Below, in pieces: positions 5,867 to 60,414 of a stretch of 64,000 nucleotides of DNA. Made by a program: the position numbers and the translations under genes. Source of the DNA: Escherichia phage Baret; the sequence record OR896834.1. The stretch is one strand, 5' to 3'. Below the pieces are notes generated by a model. It was not told the DNA's origin, did no database searches, and saw only the letters and a program-made list of their open reading frames with translations. The stretch's first letter is position 1. Each line of letters begins with the position of its first letter.

Positions 5867-6050
5867 TACTGTCTAATAGCTCAGCTAATTCTTTATTGCC
5901 TTTCTCCATTAAGGTATTAGCAATAACTTCTAGCATATTAGCGCAGGATTCAACACCATCCTTATAGCCAGTTTCCCAATACTGCATTAATGCGTTTTCC
6001 AAAGCGGCATTTAAACCCTTATCTGGTAGCATCGGCTTCGAGAATGCCAT
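5829..6050 (-). CDS. hypothetical protein (73 aa)
   Basis: ORF track. Confidence 0.4.
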   Translation of the reverse strand: MAFSKPMLPDKGLNAALENALMQYWETGYKDGVESCANMLEVIANTLMEKGNKELAELLDSIGQNFREQVENA

Positions 6051-6243
6051 AAAGTTTCTCCTCTAGTTCCATAACACGATTTTCATAAGAAGCACGCAAC
6101 TTTTCAATTGCCAGCGCACGCACTGTAACCTCATTAGAATTAATAGCTAACTGGGCTAGGTCTTCTGTTTCCATACGTCCGTTGTAAATTAAGCGATATT
6201 TAAGGTGTTTCACATTCTTAGTCATTATTAAACTCCACTGCAA
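6019..6243 (-). CDS. hypothetical protein (74 aa)
   Basis: ORF track. Confidence 0.4.
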   Translation of the reverse strand: MQWSLIMTKNVKHLKYRLIYNGRMETEDLAQLAINSNEVTVRALAIEKLRASYENRVMELEEKLYGILEADATR

Positions 6244-8924: not shown

Positions 8925-9677
8925 ATGGGAAAAGCACGTCAAAAAAGAGAGAACCGCAATGGTTCAAGAAAGCGTGGCAACAAATATGAGAATAACGTAA
9001 TTCAGGCTGATTTTTCTAATGATTACGCTAACCCAGTTGCTAAATCCCTAGTAGGTAAAAACCGCGAGCAAAAATCATATATCAATATGATCAAGAACAA
9101 CACAGTGACTGTGGGTATCGGTGAGCCAGGTACTGGTAAAACCTTTATTCCGTCCGTTCTTGCAGCTCAGGAACTCGTAGACATTCACTCAGATATTGAG
9201 CAAGTGATTCTCGTACGTCCTAATGAACCTCTAGGTAAGTCTCTTGGTATGCTTCCTGGTGATCTGGCGGAAAAGCTAGAGCCTTGGTTAGAGCCAATAG
9301 CTGATGGTATGAAATGGGCCATCGGCGATCATGCCTATAAGGGATATGTCGAACGTCAGAAAATTAAATTTTTGGCTGTCGAACATGCTCGTGGCAGAAC
9401 TTTCAACAACTCCTATGTAATTGTCGATGAAGCTCAGAATATTTCCGTTGAGGCAATGATTTGTCTCCTAACTCGTGTAGGGCAAGACTGCCGTTTAATT
9501 ATCTGTGGAGATATAGCTCAGAAAGACATTAAAGGTGACTCAGGTCTAGCACTCCTTATGGAAGTCTATGAGAAATATGAAAATGCCCCATTCTCAATGA
9601 TCGAATTGATTGATAACGTTCGTTCTGTTGAGTCTAAAGCATTCTATGATATTTTTAAAGATATGGGAAAGGTGTAA
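8925..9677 (+). CDS. phoH: PhoH-like ATPase
   Basis: Walker A GEPGTGKT; ATG 8925 with TAGGAG 8 nt upstream (track GTG 8916 start less likely). Confidence 0.85.
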   Translation: MGKARQKRENRNGSRKRGNKYENNVIQADFSNDYANPVAKSLVGKNREQKSYINMIKNNTVTVGIGEPGTGKTFIPSVLAAQELVDIHSDIEQVILVRPNEPLGKSLGMLPGDLAEKLEPWLEPIADGMKWAIGDHAYKGYVERQKIKFLAVEHARGRTFNNSYVIVDEAQNISVEAMICLLTRVGQDCRLIICGDIAQKDIKGDSGLALLMEVYEKYENAPFSMIELIDNVRSVESKAFYDIFKDMGKV

Positions 9678-49095: not shown

Positions 49096-49816
49096 TTTAC
49101 GTGCTGAAATTAATAAAAAGTTACGAGAGGAAGCCCGGAGGTTTCCTCTTAAAAACTTTTTGAAGTCAAATGGCTCTACTAATATAACGAAGATTAGGCA
49201 ACTTCACCCTGACTTCCAACAAGAGGCCTTAAACCTTATCTTTATTAGGAAAGCTTTAAAAGTCCAGAAAGAAGAGTATGGGTATGAAAGAGTTAATTAT
49301 AAGACAGCCAATCAGTTAGTAGAGATATGGTGCTATAAACATAAAGGATACTTTATGCAAACTGCTAGATCTCACCTAGATGGGCACGGTTGTTTACAAT
49401 GTGCTAGGGAAAGCAACCTAAATACACCTATCGAGAAACCGGAGGTAGAAGAAGATGTTCAGTCCCCCACATATCTCTATATCTTCTCTAATAAAGATCA
49501 GTCTAGGAAGAAATTAAAGACAAAGATTGGGGTTTCTAGAGAGCCACATCAAAGGTTTAAGAATCTAGAGTATGATAAATTGCGTGTGCCGGGTTTTGAA
49601 GATATGGAAGTATTTGGTATCTACCAGTATAAGAAAGGATCGAAAGAACTCGCTTACAAAATAGAACACCAAGCACATAAATTTTTCGAGAATAAATTTG
49701 CTAACCATTATAAATTCGATGGAGCAAAAGAGATATTCAACATTAAAGCTGTAGAGGCAGAAGAATATCTATTAAGTCAAGGTTGCATAAAAATTTACCC
49801 AACTCCAAACTCATGA
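49088..49816 (+). CDS. homing-endonuclease-like protein with C-terminal T5orf172/GIY-YIG-like domain
   Basis: 242 aa; C-terminal YLYIFSNK...KIGVSREPHQRFK resembles the GFVYCISNP...YKIGMS motif of ORF 26222-26740; N-terminal domain paralogous to 46633-47079. Confidence 0.45.
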   Translation: MDDLRAEINKKLREEARRFPLKNFLKSNGSTNITKIRQLHPDFQQEALNLIFIRKALKVQKEEYGYERVNYKTANQLVEIWCYKHKGYFMQTARSHLDGHGCLQCARESNLNTPIEKPEVEEDVQSPTYLYIFSNKDQSRKKLKTKIGVSREPHQRFKNLEYDKLRVPGFEDMEVFGIYQYKKGSKELAYKIEHQAHKFFENKFANHYKFDGAKEIFNIKAVEAEEYLLSQGCIKIYPTPNS

Positions 49817-49843
49817 CAAAAATTTAAAAGTAACGAAATCTGC

Positions 49844-49873
49844 TTGACATTCGTGAGAATAATGTGTTATAAT
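49844..49873 (+). promoter_or_regulatory. consensus sigma70-type promoter (TTGACA-18-TATAAT) reading into the repeat tract
   Basis: -35 49844-49849, -10 49868-49873; no ORF downstream for ~1.7 kb. Confidence 0.55.
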
Positions 49874-50360
49874 AATCTCATAGATTAAAAACATCAACTT
49901 GTTTTTACCTCTAGGCCGTAGATTTACATCATTCCTCGTAGGAAAACACTTGATGACGGTTCTGTTCGCAGGTTCTCGTCAATTGTTCTTCCACACCGAG
50001 ACTTAGGAGGATGTATCAAATCGCACGCGCCTAGAGGGACTAACTCTCATGAAATGGGGGTATATTTACTTTTAAATAACTAAAAAATATTTAAAGGCAA
50101 TATCTGTGTTCAAGATGATACACCTGTTGCCGCTCATCTGCTAGGATGGCACAACACTTTCTTCTAGACTCCTAAGTTTCTAGGAATAGTTGAGCACTAA
50201 CTCTAGAGTTTACATTAAACTTTAAATCTGCTTCTCTAGTTAACTCAGGCGGTTTTCATATTCCTAGAAACTCCAGCAATAGGCGGTTAATACAGGGCGG
50301 TTATAGGGAGGGCGGTTATTTCTAAGAGACATTTTTTGAAAACACATTTCCAGAAATTAC

Positions 50361-50961
50361 TGTCGGATTTGCACATTGTGTTTCTAGAAATTTATGGTCG
50401 GATTTGCACAAACGCCTAAGTTTTTAGGAACTCTTACTCTCCTGAAAATACCAGCATTATTTCGGGCCGAAGGCCCGTGATTGCCTGAGTTTTTAGAGCC
50501 ACAGAAATTTTCACTTGTCAAGCTATTTTGCCACCTTTAGCAAATAAAATCTTACTTTATCTCCACTAATCTCAAATTAACCCAAATCTTCTCAACTCTT
50601 CCCCAAAAACGCAGCAAATCAGGTGCTCCGCACCAAACATGCTGCTCCTCCAGTTTCTCCTCTTATTTTCTCTCGCTCTCTCATCTTCTCCTCAAACCTA
50701 TACAATCACACACTCTCCAATCGAAGTCACAAAAATCTTGTCGGTTTCGCACACCTCAACACATGTCGGATCTGCACATATTCTAGCTAATTCCACAGGA
50801 TTCGAACGCAGTTCGTGATTGCTGGAGTTTCTAGAAAAATTCATTGTCGGATTTGCACACTATAAAAATTTTTCGGGTCGGATTTGCACACTACCAAAAA
50901 TTGTCGGATTCGCACATACACGCCCACACGTAACACCCGTGGAGCAATGTCGGATTTGCAC
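50361..50961. repeat. array of 8 direct copies of a 14-mer (GTCGGATTTGCACA and close variants)
   Basis: Copies at ~50361, 50396, 50739, 50764, 50845, 50876, 50902, 50948, all same orientation, irregular spacing. Confidence 0.85.
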
Positions 50962-50990
50962 AAAAGCGCAGGGCAATTGCCCTGCTCGCC

Positions 50991-51168
50991 TGAATGCGAA
51001 TGATAATGAGAATCAATCTTATTTAAAAAGCGGAATGAGAATGATAATGATTCGCATTTAAGAAAGGGAATGAGAGCTATTCAAGAAGTGAAATGATTCT
51101 CATTTAAGAAAGGAAATGATTATCGGTTAGACAGTGGAATGCGAATGATAATGATTCGCATTTAAAAA
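50991..51168. repeat. three palindromic units of type AATGCGAATGATAATGATTCGCATT
   Basis: Units near 50993-51017 (partial), 51031-51060, 51137-51166, plus degenerate copy ~51066-51106. Confidence 0.75.
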
Positions 51169-51194
51169 CGGAAGTGAGAAACACTGTTATTTAA

Positions 51195-51276
51195 GTTATC
51201 CACAGACTTATCAACAGCACGATTTGACTTGACAGAATCCTAGCCATTTTGAGGCGTTATTAACAGACTTATCCAC
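51195..51276. promoter_or_regulatory. DnaA-box cluster (2 x TTATCCACA)
   Basis: TTATCCACA at ~51195-51203 and ~51268-51276. Confidence 0.6.
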
Positions 51277-51284
51277 AGCTTATC

Positions 51285-51304
51285 CTACTGTATAAATATA
51301 CAGT
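51285..51304. promoter_or_regulatory. SOS-box-like palindrome TACTGTATAAATATACAGTA
   Basis: CTGT-N8-ACAG with AT-rich centre, matching the LexA operator pattern. Confidence 0.5.
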
Positions 51305-51561
51305 ATTCCTATGTAGTGAATAATTCTAATATAGGCCTAAAACGTCCTGAATCGCATTCTAACGCGTTTAATTTTGATGGGGATACTAAAACAAGGGCAA
51401 AATTGGAGGAGGCTTAAAAATTAGTTAGCTTGCTAACGATCACACAAGGCGACATGTAACACCTTAATCATTAGCAGGCTAACCATCGCGGGCGCGGTTA
51501 AATGAGAATCACTCTCATTTGAGAATTGGGGGCACTCCCTGGTAGTTACGCCCCGTTATTA

Positions 51562-51786
51562 TTAGTCTGGTAGTCGATGCGTGATCTTTTCCTCCTCCCC
51601 GTAGGAATCCACCAAATGCTGATAATAACCATCGGCATCATAAATAACGCTATCATATTCGCCACGCTCGACCGCTTGCCGATTCTCCGGCGTATCGGGC
51701 ACGTAAAAAACATCAACCATTGTACTGATTTTGGTTACAACAATTTTATTGTTCATAATAACCCCTAGTAAATATATTTTTGCCAA
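51562..51786 (-). CDS. hypothetical acidic protein (64-74 aa)
   Basis: ORF track; last gene of minus-strand pre-early block. Confidence 0.4.
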   Translation of the reverse strand: MAKIYLLGVIMNNKIVVTKISTMVDVFYVPDTPENRQAVERGEYDSVIYDADGYYQHLVDSYGEEEKITHRLPD

Positions 51787-51856
51787 TAGTGGCGAACGTT
51801 ATCGCCACCAGCGGAATCATTTGCAGCCTCAACATTACCAGCGAAAATATATAATC

Positions 51857-52201
51857 TCATTGCGCCACCTTTCGAAACGCTGTTTCAATACTATCCGCAG
51901 TGGATTGAATATACGCGCCTTTCATTATCAGGCGCTCGGTGCATACCTTGCGGAAAATATTAATAAAATCCTCTTCATTTTCTGCAATCAATGCTTCCCC
52001 CATGACCTGAATATCACAAGATGCAAAGGTCAAAAATTGAAATGCTAGTTCACGGGCAACGACCGCATTGATTTTATAATGCGCCTTGCCCTCATAAATA
52101 TTAATAACGCCCTTGTAAGCTGGGGAAAGCTGATTTAAATAGTTTGCTAATAATGCCGGACGGCAATTAGTAACAAAGCGATTACCTTCATAAATTACCA
52201 T
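51857..52201 (-). CDS. hypothetical protein (114 aa)
   Basis: ATG at 52201 four nt after upstream stop; track ORF 51857-52240 trimmed. Confidence 0.45.
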   Translation of the reverse strand: MVIYEGNRFVTNCRPALLANYLNQLSPAYKGVINIYEGKAHYKINAVVARELAFQFLTFASCDIQVMGEALIAENEEDFINIFRKVCTERLIMKGAYIQSTADSIETAFRKVAQ

Positions 52202-52202
52202 T

Positions 52203-52415
52203 TTATAGCACCCCACGAAAAGCCGCGTAAAAGGTGGCAAAGTGTTTAACTGTTTCAGCGATCACGTTGCCGCGCTTGTCGAATTTTTTCTCGGTAACAC
52301 GAAAGGCATTTTTGTTACGTGCTACATATTCGATTTTACAATCCTCCCGCTCGAACGTGTTAACATCCACCAGCTTAAAGCCTTTCGAACGTGCAAGAGA
52401 AACGTTGCGGATCAT
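52203..52415 (-). CDS. hypothetical basic protein (70 aa)
   Basis: ORF track; SD AAAGGAG upstream. Confidence 0.45.
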   Translation of the reverse strand: MIRNVSLARSKGFKLVDVNTFEREDCKIEYVARNKNAFRVTEKKFDKRGNVIAETVKHFATFYAAFRGVL

Positions 52416-52417
52416 TT

Positions 52418-52573
52418 TTATTCTCCTTTACCAGTCATGCAGCCCAGCAGATAAGAAAATACAGCGATACCCGCGCCGATAATAACAGCGTGAACGCCGA
52501 AAGCTATTGCAAAAAGTGATAAAATAGCGCCCAAGATACCTGCTAGAATAGCTCGAAAAATAACCATTTTCAT
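52418..52573 (-). CDS. small hydrophobic membrane protein (~50 aa)
   Basis: Hand-found minus-strand ORF (MKMVIFRAILAGILGAILSLFAIAFGVHAVIIGAGIAVF...); below ORF-track cut-off; SD AGGAG. Confidence 0.4.
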   Translation of the reverse strand: MKMVIFRAILAGILGAILSLFAIAFGVHAVIIGAGIAVFSYLLGCMTGKGE

Positions 52574-52613
52574 ACTCCTAGTTAATGGGGCGAAAGTAAC
52601 GCCCCATTATTAA

Positions 52614-52877
52614 TTACATTAAAACAATTTTTGCAGCTTGTTTTTTGGTGCAATGTTCCGCCTTCAGGGTATCCAGCAAAAAGCCAGCCGTTTGCTGATC
52701 GATTTTATCGGCGTTATATAGTTCCTGAATGGTATTATAGGTTTTAGCAATACCGAACTCCTGCACCATTTCATAGATGACAGCACGATTAGACACCCAG
52801 CCTTGAGCGGTGAACAGATGACTAGCAGAAGAATAAGCAACCATTTTAAGCCTCCAAATTTTTGGGAAAATTTTCAA
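52614..52877 (-). CDS. hypothetical protein (76-87 aa)
   Basis: ORF track. Confidence 0.4.
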   Translation of the reverse strand: MKIFPKIWRLKMVAYSSASHLFTAQGWVSNRAVIYEMVQEFGIAKTYNTIQELYNADKIDQQTAGFLLDTLKAEHCTKKQAAKIVLM

Positions 52878-52950
52878 CCGTCCTTAAACGGTGTAAAGGC
52901 ATTATAACAAAAAAGGCCACCAATTATGGCGACCTTTACAAAACTTTACA

Positions 52951-53445
52951 TTAAACTACTTGTAATGTTTCAATATTGAAACATCGTTTCAATTCGTCAT
53001 GCAAAACAGCGTATTCCTCCCATCGGGTACTATCAGGAATATAAACAAGCTGTTTTAATCGGTTTGCATATATTACCGCTTTGTTATCAATTATCTCGAC
53101 GCCGCCATATTTAATAATTAATTTCATGACGGAATTAATAGGATCACCGCCGTTTACATATGTGCCGGATTTACTTAACTGATAATGATAAAGGCTTGCA
53201 TATACGTTTTCATTTTCATACCATTCGCCAGTATCCTCGTCTTCATAGCCATCGCTACCAAAACGAGAAGCATTATCAATAGCCATTTCATGAGCGAAAG
53301 CGTCCAGATCCGTACCAGCAGGAACAAAGTATTCCTCGGTATTCCCCTCGCCGCAATAGCCAGTATGGCAATCGACTAAAATGATCATATCATGTTTAGC
53401 CGTGCTCACTTCCCCTAGCGAGAAGCCGTATTTTTCCTCAGCCAT
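52951..53445 (-). CDS. hypothetical acidic protein (164 aa)
   Basis: ORF track; no recognisable motif. Confidence 0.5.
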   Translation of the reverse strand: MAEEKYGFSLGEVSTAKHDMIILVDCHTGYCGEGNTEEYFVPAGTDLDAFAHEMAIDNASRFGSDGYEDEDTGEWYENENVYASLYHYQLSKSGTYVNGGDPINSVMKLIIKYGGVEIIDNKAVIYANRLKQLVYIPDSTRWEEYAVLHDELKRCFNIETLQVV

Positions 53446-53510
53446 TAGTTAGCCTCCTATTAATTAACAAGGGAATAGTAAAGCGGGGTAACAATCCCCG
53501 CTTAATATTA

Positions 53511-54503
53511 TTACTCGCTTTCGGTGTTAGTGGTAAAAGTAGAAATATCGATACCTTTTACCATTTCATCAATCATTTCAGCGATGTTAAAACTTTGCAC
53601 CATTTCCAGCATTGCCGCTTCCATAGCTGCGCCTGCTACCGCTTTCGCTTTCTGGTTATTCGGGGCGTACTGGTCAACCGCTACGCTCAGCAGGTTAGCA
53701 ATAACTACCCGACCAATCGGCGTATCAATATAACCTTTGATCATGAATGGTGCTTTTTTAGCCGCTACTTTCGTAATTTGAGTTAATGCAATTTTGCCAG
53801 CTTCCAGTTTTGCAGCATTTACAACAGCGGATTTATTAGCGGCAACGATATTAGCGATCTTGGTCATGGTATTATTTCCTTTGTTTTCAGTAGTTTGAGT
53901 GTTAACGCTTTGAGTGTTAGAATTTACAGCATGTTTTTCCGTGTTGTCAATAGGCTGATCTTCCTCCTTCCAGAAAGAAAAGCCCGCGCTTTCAATATCC
54001 CCATCATATACATAAGGGTACACTTCCGACGGTAACAAAAAATTACCGTTATCATCAAAGGCCATTACAGCCGCGAAACGATACCCGTCACAATCCGACC
54101 GATTCCAGCCAACTGATAAATAACGCCAAAATGAATCAAGAAAATTTTCAATATCATAAAGATCATTGGGGTTGGCTTCATAATTTTCTATTGAAAAAAC
54201 TTCTAAGCCTGCCCCAGTATCATAGGCTTTTACTGTGCTACCTTTTACGATTATGAAATCAGTATCCGGCCCTCGACTAGTGAGCAATTGATAATCTTGA
54301 TTATATAAAACAAGCGTTGCCCCTTGTTTATATAACGGTAGAAAACTATTCATATCATAGGCATCGAAATCACCAAAAAAGTTTTGGTGAATAGTTTCAG
54401 CCTTGTTAATAAAATGTTTAATGCTGGTTGTTCTGCTACCGTCCAGCAGGTTACGCAGCGCACCTTTTAAGACGGTTGCGTTATCTGGTTTATATAGCCT
54501 CAT
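53511..54503 (-). CDS. hypothetical protein (330 aa) with Asn/Thr-rich linker and Ala-rich helical C-terminus
   Basis: ORF track; SD GAGGGAGG before ATG 54503; first gene of minus-strand pre-early block. Confidence 0.55.
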   Translation of the reverse strand: MRLYKPDNATVLKGALRNLLDGSRTTSIKHFINKAETIHQNFFGDFDAYDMNSFLPLYKQGATLVLYNQDYQLLTSRGPDTDFIIVKGSTVKAYDTGAGLEVFSIENYEANPNDLYDIENFLDSFWRYLSVGWNRSDCDGYRFAAVMAFDDNGNFLLPSEVYPYVYDGDIESAGFSFWKEEDQPIDNTEKHAVNSNTQSVNTQTTENKGNNTMTKIANIVAANKSAVVNAAKLEAGKIALTQITKVAAKKAPFMIKGYIDTPIGRVVIANLLSVAVDQYAPNNQKAKAVAGAAMEAAMLEMVQSFNIAEMIDEMVKGIDISTFTTNTESE

Positions 54504-54769
54504 TTGTTGGCCTCCCTCGTTAATCGGTGAGTGAATGATAAAGGCAATTTTCTAGCATAGGCAAATATTATTTTACCTTTTTATTTTCCTTGCCTAGCGC
54601 CTAGTTTTATGCTAACCGCGCAGCGGTACAGTAAAGAGCAAAACACGGTGAAGCCACCAGGGCGACGGGTGAAGGCTTTACTTTAATATTACCCCACCGC
54701 ATTTAGCTCGTTAGAAAGCGTTTTAGGCCGCTTAAAATTGATTGCAGTTGTTAACACTACCCATTTACC

Positions 54770-54785
54770 CTGTATATTTATACAG
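54770..54785. promoter_or_regulatory. SOS-box-like palindrome CTGTATATTTATACAG
   Basis: CTGT-N8-ACAG; inverted counterpart of the element at 51285-51304. Confidence 0.5.
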
Positions 54786-54795
54786 TAGGATAACA

Positions 54796-54879
54796 TGTGG
54801 ATAAGTCTGTGGATAAGTCCTTATATCGCCGCCTATCGTGTCAAATCATTTTGTGCTGTTAATAACATTGTGGATAACT
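54796..54879. promoter_or_regulatory. DnaA-box cluster (3 x TGTGGATAA)
   Basis: TGTGGATAA at ~54796-54804, ~54808-54816 and TTGTGGATAAC ~54868-54878. Confidence 0.6.
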
Positions 54880-54911
54880 TAAATGATAGTGGTTCTCACT
54901 TAGGACGATAG

Positions 54912-54963
54912 TTTCTTATAGTTATTATTTCTATCGGTTACGATTTCTTATAATTATTATTTC
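54912..54963. repeat. two direct ~20-bp repeats (TTTCTTATAGTTATTATTTCT / TTTCTTATAATTATTATTTCT)
   Basis: Copies at ~54912-54931 and ~54944-54963 in the divergent control region. Confidence 0.6.
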
Positions 54964-55160
54964 TCATTAATTTATAAGTATATTATATATCATGAAATAG
55001 TTAGTTGGCTAATGAGATTTTCCGTGATTAATAGTCTGCTAATAGTTCCGGCTGTTACAATCCACCAGCATGATTATCATCCTAGCAACTATTAGTCTGC
55101 TATCTTTCCGATGCATACTAACAAATAAAAGTCAATTAATTTATTTCATAAAATAAGTAG

Positions 55161-55236
55161 TTATCCACTGGAAAATAAAAGTCAAGTGGATAACTAGGAA
55201 AATTTCATTTTTGCTTTTGGGGATAAGTTATCAACA
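55161..55236. promoter_or_regulatory. DnaA-box-like cluster
   Basis: TTATCCACT ~55161, GTGGATAAC ~55187, GGATAAGTTATCAACA ~55221. Confidence 0.5.
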
Positions 55237-55649
55237 AGGCTAGAATGCACCTAAAACGCCCTAGAACGCGATGAAAGTTTTAGCCATGCCATTGCATTGC
55301 CTACCCTCGTTTATCGCTACCACGAGCTTTTTAGTTTTTGTCAAGTAGGGCAAGGCAAATATAAATGAAAAAATTACTTGCCAACCTGCTGGGTTTTATG
55401 GTATTCGCGCGCCCGTTTCCTTTAATTTTAGTGCGCCGCGCCCAGGTCGCCGCACGGTGTCCGGTGGCATTTTGTCTTTACGTTTCTTTACAAAAATAAG
55501 GTTGCGCCATTTTTACTATTTGCTATTATTTATCTCGTAGGGCGGCAATGACGAACTACACGGCGGGAAGTTTACCGCCGCGCTCTTTAAAAATTGGGTA
55601 CATCTTAAAGTCTATCGGCGGTAAACTTATATTATAAGGAATCGCAGAT

Positions 55650-55853
55650 ATGAAACAAACTTTATTGATCACTGGTAAACCAGCTAAAAAATTAGATGGT
55701 ACTACTAAAAAATTGTTGACAATAGCCCAGCAATCCGTAAAATACCGATTTGCTCAGTACAAGAAAGGCCGCCAGCAGGGTTTAGAAATGATCTGGCGTA
55801 ATATTATGATCGACCTGAAAGAAAATCATAAAAAACTGCAAAAAACAGTTTGA
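55650..55853 (+). CDS. pre-early hypothetical protein (67 aa)
   Basis: ORF track; SD AGGAATCG. Confidence 0.45.
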   Translation: MKQTLLITGKPAKKLDGTTKKLLTIAQQSVKYRFAQYKKGRQQGLEMIWRNIMIDLKENHKKLQKTV

Positions 55854-56083
55854 CACCCTAGCCGATAGGCTTTAAGATGTACCCAGTTCGATGAGAGCGA
55901 TAACTTGATACAATTTGACGGTTAGGTGATTCCCCATAAATCATCCTGCCCCCTAACTGGGATATAGCAGCCTGCGTGGAGTTCCTTAAATTGATTATAG
56001 CGGTGAGCGGATTGTTGCTTATTACCTGCTACTTTCTAGCAGGTAATGCGGAACAATCCCCTAAATAACTTGGAGTTTATACT

Positions 56084-56335
56084 ATGCAAAACGTTATTAC
56101 CGCGCCTAAAATTGGTCAATCCGTTTTTATTCCTTTCGTTACTAAAACGGATGAACTAACCGGAAAAGCCGAACGTATTAAAGGTGCGGCGCTTATGCCG
56201 TTTGATACAATCGACGCGGTATACGCTGAAAATGAACGTAGTAACAACGGCAAAACCGTTTTTAGCGTTCGCGTTAAATCCGGCGACGTTGTAAAGGTTG
56301 TACAGCGTAACGAAAAATGGGAAGCTGTAGCGTAA
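56084..56335 (+). CDS. pre-early hypothetical protein (83 aa)
   Basis: ORF track; SD GGAG. Confidence 0.45.
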   Translation: MQNVITAPKIGQSVFIPFVTKTDELTGKAERIKGAALMPFDTIDAVYAENERSNNGKTVFSVRVKSGDVVKVVQRNEKWEAVA

Positions 56336-56431: not shown

Positions 56432-56839
56432 ATGACTAACGTTAAAACCGCAAAATTTGCTTGGAATGAAGAAAACACTCAAAAAGCTGTTTCTATGTAC
56501 CAGCAGTTAATTAATGAAAACGGTTTAGATTTCGCAAATAGCGACGGTTTAAAAGAGATTGCAAAAGCAGTGGGCGCGTCTTCTCCCGTGTCTGTTCGCT
56601 CAAAATTGACCAGCGCAAAAGCGTATCAGAAAAGCGATAAGCCTCGCAAAGTTGGCGGCGGTAGCTCAATCCGCAAAGCTCACTATGTACGCGTTATCGC
56701 TAAACATGCTATTGATTCCGGCATTATTAAAGACGCCGACGATCTGGCAAGTCTGGAAAGTGCAAAACTTGAAACGCTGGACGCCGTAGCGCAACTGTTA
56801 GGCGTTGCCGATGAAGTAAAACAGGCCGCAGGTGAATAA
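56432..56839 (+). CDS. pre-early hypothetical protein (135 aa)
   Basis: ORF track; SD AGGAG. Confidence 0.5.
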   Translation: MTNVKTAKFAWNEENTQKAVSMYQQLINENGLDFANSDGLKEIAKAVGASSPVSVRSKLTSAKAYQKSDKPRKVGGGSSIRKAHYVRVIAKHAIDSGIIKDADDLASLESAKLETLDAVAQLLGVADEVKQAAGE

Positions 56840-57190: not shown

Positions 57191-58855
57191 ATGATTATTT
57201 CCGCAGAAAAACAAACCGTTATCCTGAAAATGGCCGCTGACTTTAATTTCTATGGTAAACGTCTGCGCGCTACTAAACTGGAGGTCTGCGACGATATATC
57301 AAAAGCGGTCTACGATACAACAAAACACTCGACCGCTATCTGCGACTGGTTGGAAGCAAATAAACCAGCTAAACCGAAAGCGGCGAAAGTAGCAAAAGCC
57401 ATTAAAAACGATGAGCGTCCAGAAGCGGCGGGGATTGTTTCTAGCACGGTTGAGCAATGGGAAGTAAAGCAGGGTAAACGCTTTATTATTACGTCGATTC
57501 AGAATAATACTTTCCCGCATAAAAACTTTTTAGCCTCATTGGAGCAATTTGCTAAATATATCGGCGCTGATTTGCTGGTTAGCAAGTTTATTTATAACAA
57601 AAACGGTTTTCAAAATGGCGAGGGTGCAGAAGGAATAAAATATGATTCCGCATTTGACAAATATATCTGCAATAAAAACGTGTTTTTAAATAACCGCCGT
57701 TTTGCTTTCATGGCTGAAATTAACGTTTTGCCAACCGCAGATTATCCGCTTTCTGGATTCGCTGAAACTGCAACGGCGCTTAATCTGGAAGGTCTGGCAA
57801 TTGGTCACGCTAAAATTACCGCTGAAAGCGTGCCAGCTTTAAAAGGTGAAGTAGTGCGCCGTATGTACTCAACCGGAACGGCAACGCTCAAAAACTACAT
57901 TCAGCAGAAAGCAGGACAAAAGGCCGAGGCGCTGCATAACTTCGGTGCGCTAATTGTCGAGTTCGACGAGGACGGGGAATTTTTTGTACGCCAGCTCGAA
58001 ACGATGGACGAAAGCGGGGTATTTTATGATCTGAATGTGTGCGCTACTCCTGCCGGATGCTATGAGACATCGGGGCATGTTTTAGGCTTGCAATACGGCG
58101 ATATTCACGCAGAAAAATTAGATGATGATTGTGCCGTTGCGTCATGGGCTGGCGAAAATAGCTTGCTTGATATTCTTAAACCAAAATATCAATTCGTACA
58201 CGACGTGCATGATTTTACATCACGCAACCATCACAACCGCGCATCCGGTGTATTCCTAGCAAAACAATACGCCGCCGGACGTGATAAGGTATTAGATGAT
58301 CTTATCGATACGGGGCGCGTGCTGGAATCAATGGAACGTGATTTCTCGCAAACAATCATTGTTGAATCTAATCACGATTTGGCGCTATCCCGTTGGCTTG
58401 ATGATCGTAATGCTAACATTAAAGACGATCCAGCAAACGCGGAACTATATCACCGCCTAAATGCCGCGATTTATGGAGCTATTGCAGAAAAAGACGATAC
58501 TTTCAACGTGCTAGATTATGCGCTGCGCAAGGTTGCAGGTTGTGAGTTTAACGCCATTTTTCTAACTACTGACCAATCTTTCAAGATTGCAGGCATTGAA
58601 TGCGGCGTACACGGTCACAACGGCATTAACGGCAGCCGTGGCAATCCTAAACAATTTAAGAAATTGGGCAAATTAAACACCGGACACACTCACACCGCCA
58701 GCATTTATGGCGGCGTGTATACCGCTGGCGTAGCTGGTAGTCTGGACATGGGTTACAACGTTGGCGCGTCAAGCTGGACACAAACGCATTTAATTACCTA
58801 TGCAAACGGTCAGCGCACTTTGATTGACTTTAAAAACGGTAAATTCTTTGCGTAA
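57191..58855 (+). CDS. A1: A1-like pre-early protein (metallophosphatase-fold nuclease)
   Basis: 554 aa; GDIHAE, GHNG, GHTH calcineurin-like motifs; size and position relative to dmp as for T5 A1. Confidence 0.7.
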   Translation: MIISAEKQTVILKMAADFNFYGKRLRATKLEVCDDISKAVYDTTKHSTAICDWLEANKPAKPKAAKVAKAIKNDERPEAAGIVSSTVEQWEVKQGKRFIITSIQNNTFPHKNFLASLEQFAKYIGADLLVSKFIYNKNGFQNGEGAEGIKYDSAFDKYICNKNVFLNNRRFAFMAEINVLPTADYPLSGFAETATALNLEGLAIGHAKITAESVPALKGEVVRRMYSTGTATLKNYIQQKAGQKAEALHNFGALIVEFDEDGEFFVRQLETMDESGVFYDLNVCATPAGCYETSGHVLGLQYGDIHAEKLDDDCAVASWAGENSLLDILKPKYQFVHDVHDFTSRNHHNRASGVFLAKQYAAGRDKVLDDLIDTGRVLESMERDFSQTIIVESNHDLALSRWLDDRNANIKDDPANAELYHRLNAAIYGAIAEKDDTFNVLDYALRKVAGCEFNAIFLTTDQSFKIAGIECGVHGHNGINGSRGNPKQFKKLGKLNTGHTHTASIYGGVYTAGVAGSLDMGYNVGASSWTQTHLITYANGQRTLIDFKNGKFFA

Positions 58856-59679: not shown

Positions 59680-60414
59680 ATGAATAAAGCTATCATGAAT
59701 CTTTCCCGCAGCTTCCCGCATATTTCCCGCGTCATGATTTGGGATTTAGACGGCACTATCATTAATTCTTTCCATCGTGTAGCACCCTGCTTTGATAGCG
59801 AGGGCAATTTAGATTTAAATAAGTATAAAAATGAAGCGTGTAAACACCATTTAATAATGCAAGATACTTTATTGCCATTGGTTGAATATATGCGCCAGTG
59901 CATGAATGACGCAAATACTTTAAACATTATTTGCACCGCTCGACTGATGAGTAAGTCGGACTATTATTTCTTGCGTAAACAAGGGTTGCGCGGTCGTGGT
60001 AATAGTAATATCCGCGTATTTTCCCGCGATACACTACACAAATATTTTAAAGCTGATAAGGTTAGCGAAATATACCACAGCAAAGACGCAGTATATAAAT
60101 CTTATTATTTTGAATTATTTAAACAGTTATATCCTAACGCTGATTTTACAATGATTGATGATCATAAAGGCGTGCTATCAGCGGCAGCGTCATACGGATT
60201 TAAAACGCTGGACGCACAAGCCGTTAATGATATTCTATCAATCGGCGTGGCATTGATAGGTGAAACCTTTATTGATGAATCTCTCGACGATGATAATGAT
60301 TATCAATTCCTAGCTGACCGTTTAAAATTATGCTGGGAAGGTATGACCGAGGAAGAACGCGCAGAATATAGTTGCAGTCCTCAACAATATATTGAGAAAT
60401 TAAAAGTTGCCTAA
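59680..60414 (+). CDS. dmp: 5'-deoxyribonucleotidase (HAD family)
   Basis: 244 aa; N-terminal MIWDLDGTI HAD motif I. Confidence 0.8.
   Translation: MNKAIMNLSRSFPHISRVMIWDLDGTIINSFHRVAPCFDSEGNLDLNKYKNEACKHHLIMQDTLLPLVEYMRQCMNDANTLNIICTARLMSKSDYYFLRKQGLRGRGNSNIRVFSRDTLHKYFKADKVSEIYHSKDAVYKSYYFELFKQLYPNADFTMIDDHKGVLSAAASYGFKTLDAQAVNDILSIGVALIGETFIDESLDDDNDYQFLADRLKLCWEGMTEEERAEYSCSPQQYIEKLKVA

What the first reader, a model, noticed from the sequence alone, without database searches (positions are those of the whole stretch)
51261..54821. Inverted ~42-bp modules (DnaA boxes plus SOS-box-like palindrome) bracket a 3.5-kb minus-strand gene block
The element around 51264-51304 (CAGACTTATCCACAGCTTATCCTACTGTATAAATATACAG) recurs as a near-exact reverse complement around 54769-54821. 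Each copy joins TTATCCACA DnaA boxes to a CTGT-N8-ACAG palindrome of LexA-operator form. Together they flank the six-gene minus-strand block 51562-54503, which is visibly GC-richer and more host-like in codon choice than the early region. This could be paired host-factor binding modules (DnaA, LexA) controlling pre-early expression or DNA transfer, or the terminal inverted repeats of an acquired cassette.
Basis: partly seen in the sequence, partly recalled or inferred. Interest (0 to 1): 0.7.

Follow-up and report, generated by a model that had tools for sequence, protein, structure and literature searches.

The report
T5 injection-stop repeats carry LexA-type boxes
The two inverted modules are this phage's copies of the known T5 repeats with DnaA boxes near the site where DNA injection pauses, but their palindrome looks like a near-perfect binding site for the host SOS repressor LexA and is kept in T5-like phages of many hosts, a clue I did not find in print.

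Summary
The window is a T5-like phage (Demerecviridae). The repeat is 147 nt per arm (about 230 nt with gaps), at 51172-51318 and 54755-54901. It is the orthologue of T5's annotated IRD'-spacer-IRC' (injection-stop region) and IRC-spacer-IRD, with eight DnaA or DnaA-like boxes in 3-bp-spaced pairs, as Davison described in 2020. That part is already known.

The palindrome is T5's annotated 'palindrome D'. It scores 25.1 and 22.3 bits on an E. coli LexA matrix (maximum 26.5; next best in 64 kb is 12.3). One to three such boxes, usually two, lie upstream of A1 in 54 of 55 Demerecviridae loci. These include Klebsiella, Pantoea, Proteus, Aeromonas and Vibrio phages whose flanks have diverged. CTG and TACAG are invariant, and changes are one-sided and LexA-tolerated. 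None occur upstream of A1 in 471 kb of non-Demerecviridae A1 loci. I found no paper linking T5 to LexA.

The boxes overlap no conserved promoter, so they are probably architectural host-factor pads rather than classic operators. Binding and function are untested.

The bracketed block is ordinary pre-early T5 genes, variable in content and inverted in two lineages. It is not a mobile cassette.

The parts
51172..51318 (.). Arm on the injection-stop side. Orthologue of T5 IRD'-spacer-IRC' (T5 9332-9462).
   Evidence: Inverted repeat I1, 147 nt, 76% complementary. Alignment A1. T5 annotation and sequence. Davison 2020.
54755..54901 (.). Arm in the divergent-promoter region. Orthologue of T5 IRC-spacer-IRD (T5 6022-6152).
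51286..51305 (.). LexA-operator-type 20-mer TACTGTATAAATATACAGTA. Identical to T5 'palindrome D'. One mismatch from the consensus TACTGTATATATATACAGTA.
   Evidence: 25.1 bits of a possible 26.5. Identical 20-mer at T5 9330-9349. Conserved in all Demerecviridae loci with enough upstream DNA.
54768..54787 (.). Second LexA-operator-type 20-mer, CCCTGTATATTTATACAGTA. Its 16-nt core is the exact reverse complement of the core in the other arm.
   Evidence: 22.3 bits. Orthologous boxes score 16.5-25.1 bits in relatives.
51196..51216 (+). DnaA box pair TTATCCACA-gac-TTATCAACA.
   Evidence: Pairs with 3-bp spacing as described by Davison 2020.
51257..51277 (+). DnaA box pair TTATTAACA-gac-TTATCCACA. 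It ends 8 bp before the LexA-type box.
54796..54816 (-). DnaA box pair, read on the + strand as TGTGGATAA-gtc-TGTGGATAA. It starts 8 bp after the LexA-type box.
54857..54877 (-). DnaA box pair, read on the + strand as TGTTAATAA-cat-TGTGGATAA.
51319..51400 (.). Inner extension of the inverted repeat, with gaps (GGCCTAAAACG..TTCTAACG..GGGGATACTAAA).
   Evidence: Alignment A3. Also conserved in the Sugarland-like locus L044.
54665..54754 (.). Inner extension of the inverted repeat on the other arm. Includes the T5 IRB'-type element.
   Evidence: Alignment A3. T5 annotation.
51562..54503 (-). Bracketed pre-early operon of seven ORFs (330, 164, 87, 51, 70, 127 and 74 aa), homologous to T5 genes 011-017.
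   Evidence: ORF list. Pfam DUF7566 and PHROG hits including phrog_4227, the T5.015 nickase family. BF23 and T5 synteny.
50764..51171 (.). Context: the direct repeats and palindromes of the injection-stop region (T5 DRC, DRE and DRD types), between the arm and the end of the terminal repeat.
   Evidence: Repeat families D1-D6. T5 annotation. Davison 2020.

Best explanation
The two modules are this phage's copies of the T5-family inverted repeats IRD'-spacer-IRC' and IRC-spacer-IRD. The first lies in the injection-stop (iss) region near the end of the terminal repeat. The second lies in the region between the two divergent pre-early operons. They are conserved cis-acting DNA, not coding sequence.

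Each arm is a composite landing pad for host DNA-binding proteins. Two pairs of DnaA boxes sit on the outer side. One consensus-grade LexA-type operator (T5 'palindrome D') sits on the inner side, 7-9 bp from the last DnaA box.

Inferred mechanism. [quoted passage not shown] This builds a protein-DNA complex at each end of the rightward pre-early operon. The iss-side complex is part of what holds or pauses the DNA until A1 and A2 allow the second transfer step. The LexA dimer would act as an architectural or roadblock component rather than as a promoter repressor.

Because the arms are inverted copies, recombination between them has also flipped the intervening variable gene block during evolution.

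What is shown: identity with the T5 repeats, the motif content, family-wide conservation, and the inversions.
What is inferred: actual LexA and DnaA binding, and any role in the injection pause.
For: Identity with the T5 repeats.
- The region is 88-96% identical to T5-like phages and maps to terminal-repeat coordinates 4.4-9.7 kb of BF23.
- The T5 record annotates inverted repeats C, D, D', C' and palindrome D at the orthologous places.
- DnaA pair spacing is 61 bp start to start, the same as in T5.
- Davison 2020 describes the 131-bp repeats and the eight DnaA boxes in 3-bp pairs. He also cites a second first-step-transfer band near IRC reported in 1979.

LexA-type box.
- The boxes score 25.1 and 22.3 bits, against at most 23.2 for 28 E. 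coli SOS boxes.
- Eight training sites and the consensus were checked against PMC3009722 Table 4.
- The next best score is 12.3 in the window and 12.5 in T5 11.5-61.5 kb.

Conservation.
- Fifty-four of 55 Demerecviridae loci have one to three boxes of at least 16 bits upstream of A1. The exception holds only 2.7 kb of upstream DNA.
- In 471 kb of non-Demerecviridae A1 loci there is no box upstream of A1. The only hit is one distinct site, 17.1 bits, 8.8 kb downstream.
- Among nine genus-level representatives, pairwise identity is 0.77 in the box against 0.33-0.48 in the flanks. CTG and TACAG are 100% conserved.
- The conservation profile of 28 distinct boxes tracks LexA information content (Spearman 0.86). 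Variants are unilateral ones such as CTGG, CCAG and CTGTAC that natural SOS boxes also carry. None is compensatory, which argues for protein recognition and against a hairpin.
- The order 'DnaA box, 7-9 bp, LexA-type box' is kept from E. coli to Vibrio phages.

Inversion.
- Homologues of the 330-, 164- and 74-aa proteins lie on the opposite strand between unchanged arms in Sugarland-like loci and in L047/L048.
- This implies at least two events on the A1 tree.
Against: - No binding data exist for LexA or DnaA on this DNA. Recent papers state that the role of these sites is untested.
- All known hosts of the family are Gammaproteobacteria and share one LexA motif. Conservation therefore cannot separate host LexA from a phage protein with the same specificity.
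- The boxes do not overlap a conserved promoter. One 10/12 promoter-like match at 54751-54778 is not conserved in T5. The usual way LexA acts is therefore not evident.
- A protein bound to DNA that is already inside the cell does not obviously stop further entry.
- T5-like phages are isolated on E. coli DH5a. That strain is recA1 by established knowledge, so LexA cleavage cannot be required for infection.
- Some lineages keep only the iss-side box (L052-L054, Ceto), and the proximal box decays to 16.5 bits in some phages. The pairing is therefore not essential.
The boxes were collected with a score threshold, which inflates the profile correlation.
Confidence: 0.6

Rival explanations
1. The palindrome is the recognition or cleavage site of a phage protein, most plausibly the essential DNA-binding protein A2 acting with A1. 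Its likeness to a LexA operator would be coincidence or mimicry. In this view A1/A2 act at the palindromes to release the paused DNA or to process the terminal repeats.
For: - A1 and A2 are conserved in every locus that carries the boxes.
- Davison 2020 lists PalD among candidate palindromes for an A1 'restriction-like' cleavage.
- A2 matches a PHROG DNA-binding family. Its single-sequence model is two three-helix bundles.
- Host-motif switching could not be tested because all hosts are Gammaproteobacteria.
Against: - A2 and A1 are only 32-44% identical in the Proteus, Aeromonas and Vibrio phages (75% and 67% in the Klebsiella and Pantoea phages), yet the box keeps exactly the gammaproteobacterial LexA consensus.
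- Tolerated variants are those seen in natural SOS boxes.
- The A2 model has no significant structural match and no LexA-like winged helix.
- No A2 sequence specificity is known.
Confidence: 0.2
2. The boxes are classical SOS operators. LexA would repress promoters in the arms, making part of pre-early transcription inducible by DNA damage or by A1-driven host DNA breakdown.
For: - The boxes have operator-grade scores.
- A 10/12 sigma-70-like match at 54751-54778 has its -10 element inside the proximal box.
- The block encodes DNA-damaging functions: the T5.015 nickase family and the gene 011 family, reported as toxic.
Against: - The experimentally characterised promoter of the block lies just upstream of gene 011. 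The putative promoter annotated there in T5 is about 200 bp from the box.
- The promoter-like match is not conserved in T5 or in L044.
- The iss-side box has no downstream gene to regulate.
- Box-to-gene geometry changes when the block is inverted.
- The phages grow on a recA1 host.
Confidence: 0.1
3. The repeats are kept mainly as recombination substrates. They would be conserved flanks that allow exchange and inversion of a variable accessory-gene cassette between co-infecting T5-like phages. The protein-binding motifs would be secondary.
For: - Block length between the boxes ranges from 1.6 to 4.6 kb, with genes gained and lost.
- All block genes lie between the boxes.
- There were at least two inversions.
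- Davison notes very low conservation of this 3-kb coding region next to highly conserved repeats.
Against: - Recombination needs homology, not specific motifs. Yet conservation peaks exactly on the DnaA and LexA-type boxes while the rest of the arm diverges.
- Lineages with a single arm still keep the module of DnaA boxes plus LexA-type box.
Confidence: 0.1
4. The repeats are the terminal inverted repeats of a transposon-like cassette acquired from a host.
For: - Inverted repeats bracket a gene block.
- The block is GC-richer than the early region.
Against: - No transposase or recombinase family was detected; five of the seven proteins match only families of unknown function.
- The genes are T5 pre-early genes 011-017, some up to 100% identical to T5.
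- GC content equals that of the A2-A1 operon.
- Arms and block are present in every Tequintavirus and Epseptimavirus locus, with no empty site.
Confidence: 0.03

Closest known systems
Phage T5 inverted repeats IRC-spacer-IRD (Repeat Region 2) and IRD'-spacer-IRC' (Repeat Region 3, injection-stop region), including 'palindrome D'. Sources: GenBank AY587007 annotation and Davison 2020, bioRxiv 10.1101/866236.
   Same: - Orthologous position in the terminal repeat.
- Same 20-mer palindrome.
- Eight DnaA or DnaA-like boxes in 3-bp-spaced pairs.
- Same 61-bp pair-to-pair spacing.
- Same flanking pre-early operon.
   Different: Nothing structural differs. The published descriptions that I could read treat the palindrome only as a palindrome or a possible cleavage site and never mention LexA or SOS. 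Here all eight boxes are intact, whereas T5 itself has lost one.
E. coli SOS boxes (LexA operators, consensus TACTGTATATATATACAGTA), and LexA operators used by mobile elements such as colicin plasmids and temperate phages.
   Same: - CTGT-N8-ACAG with an AT-rich spacer.
- Scores as high as or higher than the strongest chromosomal operators.
- The variants seen are the natural ones.
   Different: - The boxes do not overlap a conserved promoter.
- They sit in a strictly virulent phage, fused to DnaA boxes and duplicated as an inverted pair.
- One copy has no gene downstream.
- Binding is untested.
Clusters of DnaA boxes outside replication origins (datA or DARS type), and DnaA-box transcription roadblocks (Schaefer and Messer 1989, recalled from memory).
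   Same: - Several consensus 9-mers are closely spaced in a defined orientation.
- They are not at the phage replication origin, which Davison places mid-genome.
   Different: - The cluster is phage-borne and paired with a LexA-type box.
- No evidence exists for DnaA titration or for termination of transcription here.
Invertible DNA segments flanked by inverted repeats (Mu G, P1 C, Salmonella Hin).
   Same: Inverted repeats bracket a gene block that is found in both orientations.
   Different: - No invertase gene and no short crossover sites are present.
- The two orientations are seen only between genera, not within a phage.
- The arms are 147-230 nt and only 76% alike.

Membership tests
T5-type first-step-transfer inverted repeats (IRC/IRD) | Located in the non-coding regions of the terminal repeat, on both sides of the rightward pre-early operon, with the distal arm next to the injection-stop repeats. 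| tested here: met
   Synteny with BF23 and T5: dmp-A1-A2, arm, genes 011-017, arm, DRC/DRD repeats, end of terminal repeat.
T5-type first-step-transfer inverted repeats (IRC/IRD) | Inverted repeat of about 131 bp shared by the two regions. | tested here: met
   147 nt at 76% complementarity. Alignments A1 and A3.
T5-type first-step-transfer inverted repeats (IRC/IRD) | Eight DnaA or DnaA* boxes in pairs separated by 3 bp, with a fixed spacer between the pairs. | tested here: met
   Four pairs at 51196-51216, 51257-51277, 54796-54816 and 54857-54877. Spacing is 61 bp start to start, as in T5.
LexA operator (SOS box) | CTGT-N8-ACAG palindrome with AT-rich spacer, scoring within the range of validated operators. 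| tested here: met
   25.1 and 22.3 bits, against 12.8-23.2 for 28 E. coli sites. Consensus and eight sites verified in PMC3009722.
LexA operator (SOS box) | Bound by LexA in vitro or in vivo. | not testable with these tools
   No data were found in seven literature searches.
LexA operator (SOS box) | Overlaps or abuts a promoter whose transcription is inducible by DNA damage. | tested here: not met
   The promoter annotated upstream of gene 011 in T5 is about 200 bp away. The single promoter-like overlap is not conserved. The distal box has no downstream gene.
Transposon or mobile-cassette terminal inverted repeats | A transposase or recombinase is encoded between the repeats. | tested here: not met
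   Pfam and PHROG give only DUF7566, families of unknown function and the T5.015 nickase family.
Transposon or mobile-cassette terminal inverted repeats | Presence/absence polymorphism with empty sites among relatives. | tested here: not met
   Arms and a gene block are present in all Tequintavirus and Epseptimavirus loci with enough upstream DNA (one locus holds too little); only the content and orientation of the block vary.
Site-specific invertible segment (Gin/Hin type) | An invertase gene, and both orientations present within one population. | tested here: not met
   No invertase family hit. Orientation is fixed within genera. Within-population isomers could not be tested.

The most novel reading that the evidence does not exclude
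Host LexA is a built-in component of the T5-family two-step DNA-transfer machinery. In this reading the consensus-grade LexA box next to the DnaA boxes at the injection-stop site recruits the SOS repressor onto the just-injected DNA. LexA would then help pause or anchor the genome. Alternatively, it would let the phage read the host's SOS state before committing the remaining 92% of its DNA. A virulent phage family would thus have kept a host repressor site for a non-transcriptional, architectural purpose across Enterobacterales, Aeromonas and Vibrio hosts.
Probability: 0.25. Interest if true: 0.85.

Novelty: new member of a known kind. Interest (0 to 1): 0.55.

Why it matters
How T5 stops DNA injection after 8% of its genome and then restarts has been open for about 60 years. 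The stop signal is known only as a confusing non-coding region, and its proposed DnaA boxes have never been tested.

Here the most conserved element of that region, in every genus of the family sampled, turns out to be a near-perfect LexA operator fused to DnaA boxes. That gives a specific and cheap set of experiments: LexA footprinting, lexA(Def) and lexA(Ind-) hosts, and box mutants.

If LexA binds and matters, it would be an unusual case of a strictly lytic phage using the SOS repressor architecturally. If it does not, the motif points to the specificity of a phage protein such as A2.

The evolutionary inversions show that the repeats also shape a hotspot of host-takeover genes.

Tried and rejected
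- Rfam scan of 49800-56200 at E-value up to 0.1 found no RNA family.
- The T5 promoter sequence PN25, recalled from memory, is not in the window.
- The promoter scan gave 23 sites against 17.6 expected. Only one overlaps a box, and it is not conserved in T5 or L044, so I dropped the operator reading as the main explanation.
- A2 as a LexA-like protein led nowhere. There is no PDB sequence hit. The single-sequence AlphaFold model (pLDDT 75, pTM 0.40) is two three-helix bundles with no Foldseek match better than E = 0.5.
- The mBio paper on JSS1_004, which binds the recA and lexA promoters, looked relevant. That protein is a kinase/shutoff protein, and nothing in the paper ties it to T5 A2 or to these repeats.
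- Davison 2015 and Heusterspreute 1987 are not held in the library. I therefore cannot exclude that one of them mentions LexA.
- Fur-box-like palindromes in the neighbouring repeats are weak, with 4-5 mismatches. I did not pursue them.
- A motif-switch test in hosts outside the Gammaproteobacteria is not possible. The A1 homologues outside Demerecviridae (L057-L087) lack the whole module.
- The hairpin or cruciform explanation is rejected because all variation in the box breaks symmetry and none is compensatory.

Full report
**What the window is.** Bases 50500-55800 are 88-96% identical to many T5-like phages (Demerecviridae). The best matches are Salmonella phage PMBT29 and Escherichia phage mar004NP2. 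In records that start at the left terminal repeat, this stretch maps in reverse orientation to about 4.4-9.7 kb of the repeat, for example in BF23. The 554-aa ORF at 57191-58855 is the DNA-transfer protein A1, and 56432-56839 is A2. The finding therefore lies in the first-step-transfer (pre-early) region. During infection, DNA enters from the right of the window (dmp, A1, A2) and stops near 51.0 kb.

**Check of the observation.**
- The quoted sequences are present at the stated coordinates.
- The repeat is larger than reported. Its arms are 51172-51318 and 54755-54901, 147 nt at 76% complementarity.
- With gaps the similarity runs inward to about 230 nt per arm.
- Each arm has two pairs of DnaA or DnaA-like 9-mers spaced by 3 bp: 51196-51216 and 51257-51277 on one arm, 54796-54816 and 54857-54877 on the other.
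- Five of the window's 11 TTWTNCACA matches fall within these 294 bp.
- CTGT-N8-ACAG occurs three times in 64 kb, and two of those are here.

**It is a known structure.** The T5 GenBank record AY587007 annotates inverted repeats C (6022-6060), D (6112-6152), D' (9332-9372) and C' (9424-9462). It also annotates a 20-bp 'palindrome D' at 9330-9349.
- The T5 sequence at palindrome D is TACTGTATAAATATACAGTA, identical to window 51286-51305.
- The IRD copy in T5 is CACTGTATAAATATACAGGG.
- Davison's 2020 preprint describes these as IRCspacerIRD (Repeat Region 2) and IRD'spacerIRC' (Repeat Region 3, the injection-stop or iss region). He reports them as conserved in 25 T5-like phages, with eight DnaA boxes in 3-bp-spaced pairs and a constant spacer.
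- He proposes that membrane-bound DnaA holds the DNA at iss. He also notes an old report of a second first-step band near IRC.
- Papers from 2023 and 2026 state that the role of these sites remains untested.

The repeat and its DnaA boxes are therefore already described.

**The palindrome as a LexA-type operator.** The consensus and eight of the sites were later confirmed in PMC3009722 Table 4.
- The two boxes score 25.1 and 22.3 bits, of a possible 26.5.
- The best training site scores 23.2, and the next best 20-mer in the 64-kb window scores 12.3.
- T5 11.5-61.5 kb has nothing above 12.5. In 200 shuffles of the window the best score averaged 13.2 and never exceeded 20.7.
- The distal box differs from the textbook consensus TACTGTATATATATACAGTA at one central position.

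**Conservation across the family.** I fetched the A1 neighbourhood from eight annotated Demerecviridae records: T5, BF23, and Klebsiella, Pantoea, Proteus, Aeromonas and two Vibrio phages. I added 79 IMG/VR loci found with an A1 alignment.
- Fifty-four of the 55 Demerecviridae-type loci scanned relative to A1 carry one to three boxes of at least 16 bits. All lie upstream of A1, and usually there are exactly two. The exception holds only 2.7 kb of upstream DNA.
- The distal box scores 22.9-25.4 bits in the T5/Epseptimavirus group and 17.7-25.4 bits in the other genera.
- The 31 loci with shorter, non-Demerecviridae A1 homologues (471 kb) have none upstream of A1. They hold only one distinct 17.1-bit site anywhere.
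- In nine genus-level representatives anchored on the distal box, mean pairwise identity is 0.77 inside the 20-mer and 0.33-0.48 in the flanks. CTG (positions 3-5) and TACAG (positions 14-18) are invariant, while the central positions vary.
- Across 28 distinct boxes, the per-position conservation tracks the information content of the LexA matrix (Spearman 0.86).
- Every variant breaks the palindrome on one side only. Examples are CTGG, CCAG, CTGTAC and ATAC-to-ACAC, changes that natural SOS boxes also show. There is no compensatory change. This argues for recognition by a LexA-like dimer rather than for a hairpin.
- The local order 'DnaA box, 7-9 bp, box' is kept from E. coli phages to Vibrio phage Ceto.

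Caveats: the boxes were collected with a score threshold. All hosts are Gammaproteobacteria with one LexA motif, so a phage protein with the same specificity cannot be excluded.

**Literature on LexA.**
- Davison 2020 contains no occurrence of 'LexA' or 'SOS'.
- Searches combining T5, Tequintavirus, Demerecviridae, T5-like or pre-early with LexA or SOS box returned nothing relevant.
- The T5 16-mer in either orientation occurs in no paper of the library.
- Davison 2015 and Heusterspreute 1987 could not be read.

**Not a classical operator.** The experimentally characterised promoter of the block lies upstream of gene 011. The putative promoter annotated there in T5 starts about 200 bp from the proximal box. 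One 10/12 promoter-like match (54751-54778) has its -10 element in the proximal box, but its -35 element is not conserved in T5 or in L044. The distal box has no gene downstream. T5-like phages are isolated on E. coli DH5a, which is recA1 by established knowledge. LexA cleavage therefore cannot be a required step.

**The bracketed block.**
- It holds seven ORFs, homologous to T5 genes 011-017.
- These include DUF7566 (gene 011, reported as toxic) and a 70-aa protein 100% identical to T5's. That protein falls in the PHROG family annotated as the Ung-dependent abasic-site nickase.
- A T5 mutant lacking hegG to 017 is viable with small plaques.
- GC content is 0.406 for the block, 0.420 for the A2-A1 operon and 0.367 for the early region. 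The GC shift therefore belongs to the whole pre-early region.
- Across relatives the distance between the two boxes ranges from 1.6 to 4.6 kb, genes come and go, and all block genes lie between the boxes.
- In Sugarland-like Klebsiella phages (L003, L044-L046) and in L047-L049 the block is on the opposite strand, while the arms keep their orientation.
- On an A1 neighbour-joining tree this needs at least two inversion events. The natural explanation is recombination between the inverted arms.
- There is no transposase, no empty site and no host-like signature, so the 'acquired cassette' reading fails.

**Most likely function.**
- Shown: two conserved composite modules (DnaA box pairs plus a LexA-type box) bracket the rightward pre-early operon. 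The distal one lies inside the injection-stop region, and selection acts on the boxes themselves.
- Inferred: host DnaA and LexA load on the newly injected DNA and form a complex at each arm. The iss-side complex contributes to the pause or anchoring of the DNA. LexA acts architecturally or as a roadblock or boundary.
- My estimates: identity with the T5 repeats about 0.97, LexA actually binding about 0.7, and a role in the transfer pause about 0.3.

**Rivals.**
- A phage protein such as A2/A1 recognises the palindrome.
- The boxes are true SOS operators.
- The arms are maintained mainly as recombination flanks.
- The arms are transposon ends. This is rejected.

**Verdict.** The structure is a further member of a known and annotated T5 element, so the bare observation is not new. 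The added value is that 'palindrome D' is a consensus-grade LexA-type site conserved family-wide next to DnaA boxes, and that the arms have mediated inversions. The LexA reading is apparently unreported and gives direct experiments on the long-standing question of two-step injection. Interest: 0.55.

Noticed in passing
window 51334-51400, 54665-54729 and 55250-55270: A further conserved element (GGCCTAAAACG..TTCTAACG..GGGGATA.TAAA) lies inward of each LexA-type box and extends the inverted repeat to about 230 nt per arm. A third partial copy (CCTAAAACGCCCTAGAACGCG) lies in the A2-proximal non-coding region. It corresponds to the T5 IRB/IRB' type and is also conserved in Sugarland-like phages.
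   Followed up: partly
L003, L044-L046 and L047-L049 compared with window 51562-54503: The gene block between the two arms is inverted relative to A1 in Sugarland-like Klebsiella phages and in a second lineage (contigs of 122 kb and 106 kb). The arms keep their orientation. This needs at least two events on the A1 tree.
   Followed up: yes
window 51295-51296 and 54777-54778, and the orthologous boxes in relatives: The two central bases of the 20-mer flip between AA and TT among relatives and between arms (GG and CC in Aeromonas and Vibrio phages). This double change equals inverting the centre of the palindrome, as expected from template switching at a quasi-palindrome.
   Followed up: partly
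window 50996-51165 and 60286-60310: The palindromes of the neighbouring injection-stop repeats (such as GCGAATGATAATGATTCGC) resemble a Fur box with 4-5 mismatches to GATAATGATAATCATTATC. A better match, with 3 mismatches, lies at 60286-60310. The resemblance is weak and may be chance.
   Followed up: no
window 51230-51240 and 54836-54841; L044 arms: A perfect TTGACA hexamer sits in the spacer between the two DnaA-box pairs in all four arms compared (window and L044). No -10 element lies 16-18 nt downstream.
   Followed up: no
window 55158-55196 and 55220-55238: More DnaA-type boxes lie in the A2-proximal non-coding region. One is an inverted pair, TAGTTATCCACTGGA and TCAAGTGGATAACTA, 9 bp apart. 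Another is GGGGATAAGTTATCAACA.
   Followed up: no
window 50764-50969: Five copies of a GTCGGATTTGCACA-type direct repeat (T5 DRD type) lie between the injection-stop palindromes and the end of the terminal repeat.
   Followed up: no
window 52203-52415 and 53511-54503 (both minus strand): The 70-aa ORF is 100% identical to its T5 homologue and falls in the PHROG family annotated as the Ung-dependent abasic-site nickase (T5.015). The 330-aa ORF is DUF7566, the T5 gene 011 family, which a 2026 preprint reports as toxic and hard to clone.
   Followed up: partly
L057-L087 (IMG/VR contigs): A1 homologues at 42-47% identity match only from about residue 24-96 of A1 onward, so they seem to lack its N-terminus. 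They occur on contigs that are not T5-like and carry no LexA-type boxes upstream. They may show what A1 does outside two-step injection.
   Followed up: no
L007 (Vibrio phage D308) 10939-10958; L055 4012-4031; L008 521-540: Some distant relatives carry an extra LexA-type box. D308 has a third box of 22.1 bits, 1 kb upstream of A1. A Proteus-like phage has one of 18.4 bits inside the block. Ceto has a weak second box (14.1 bits) overlapping a DnaA box by one base.
   Followed up: no
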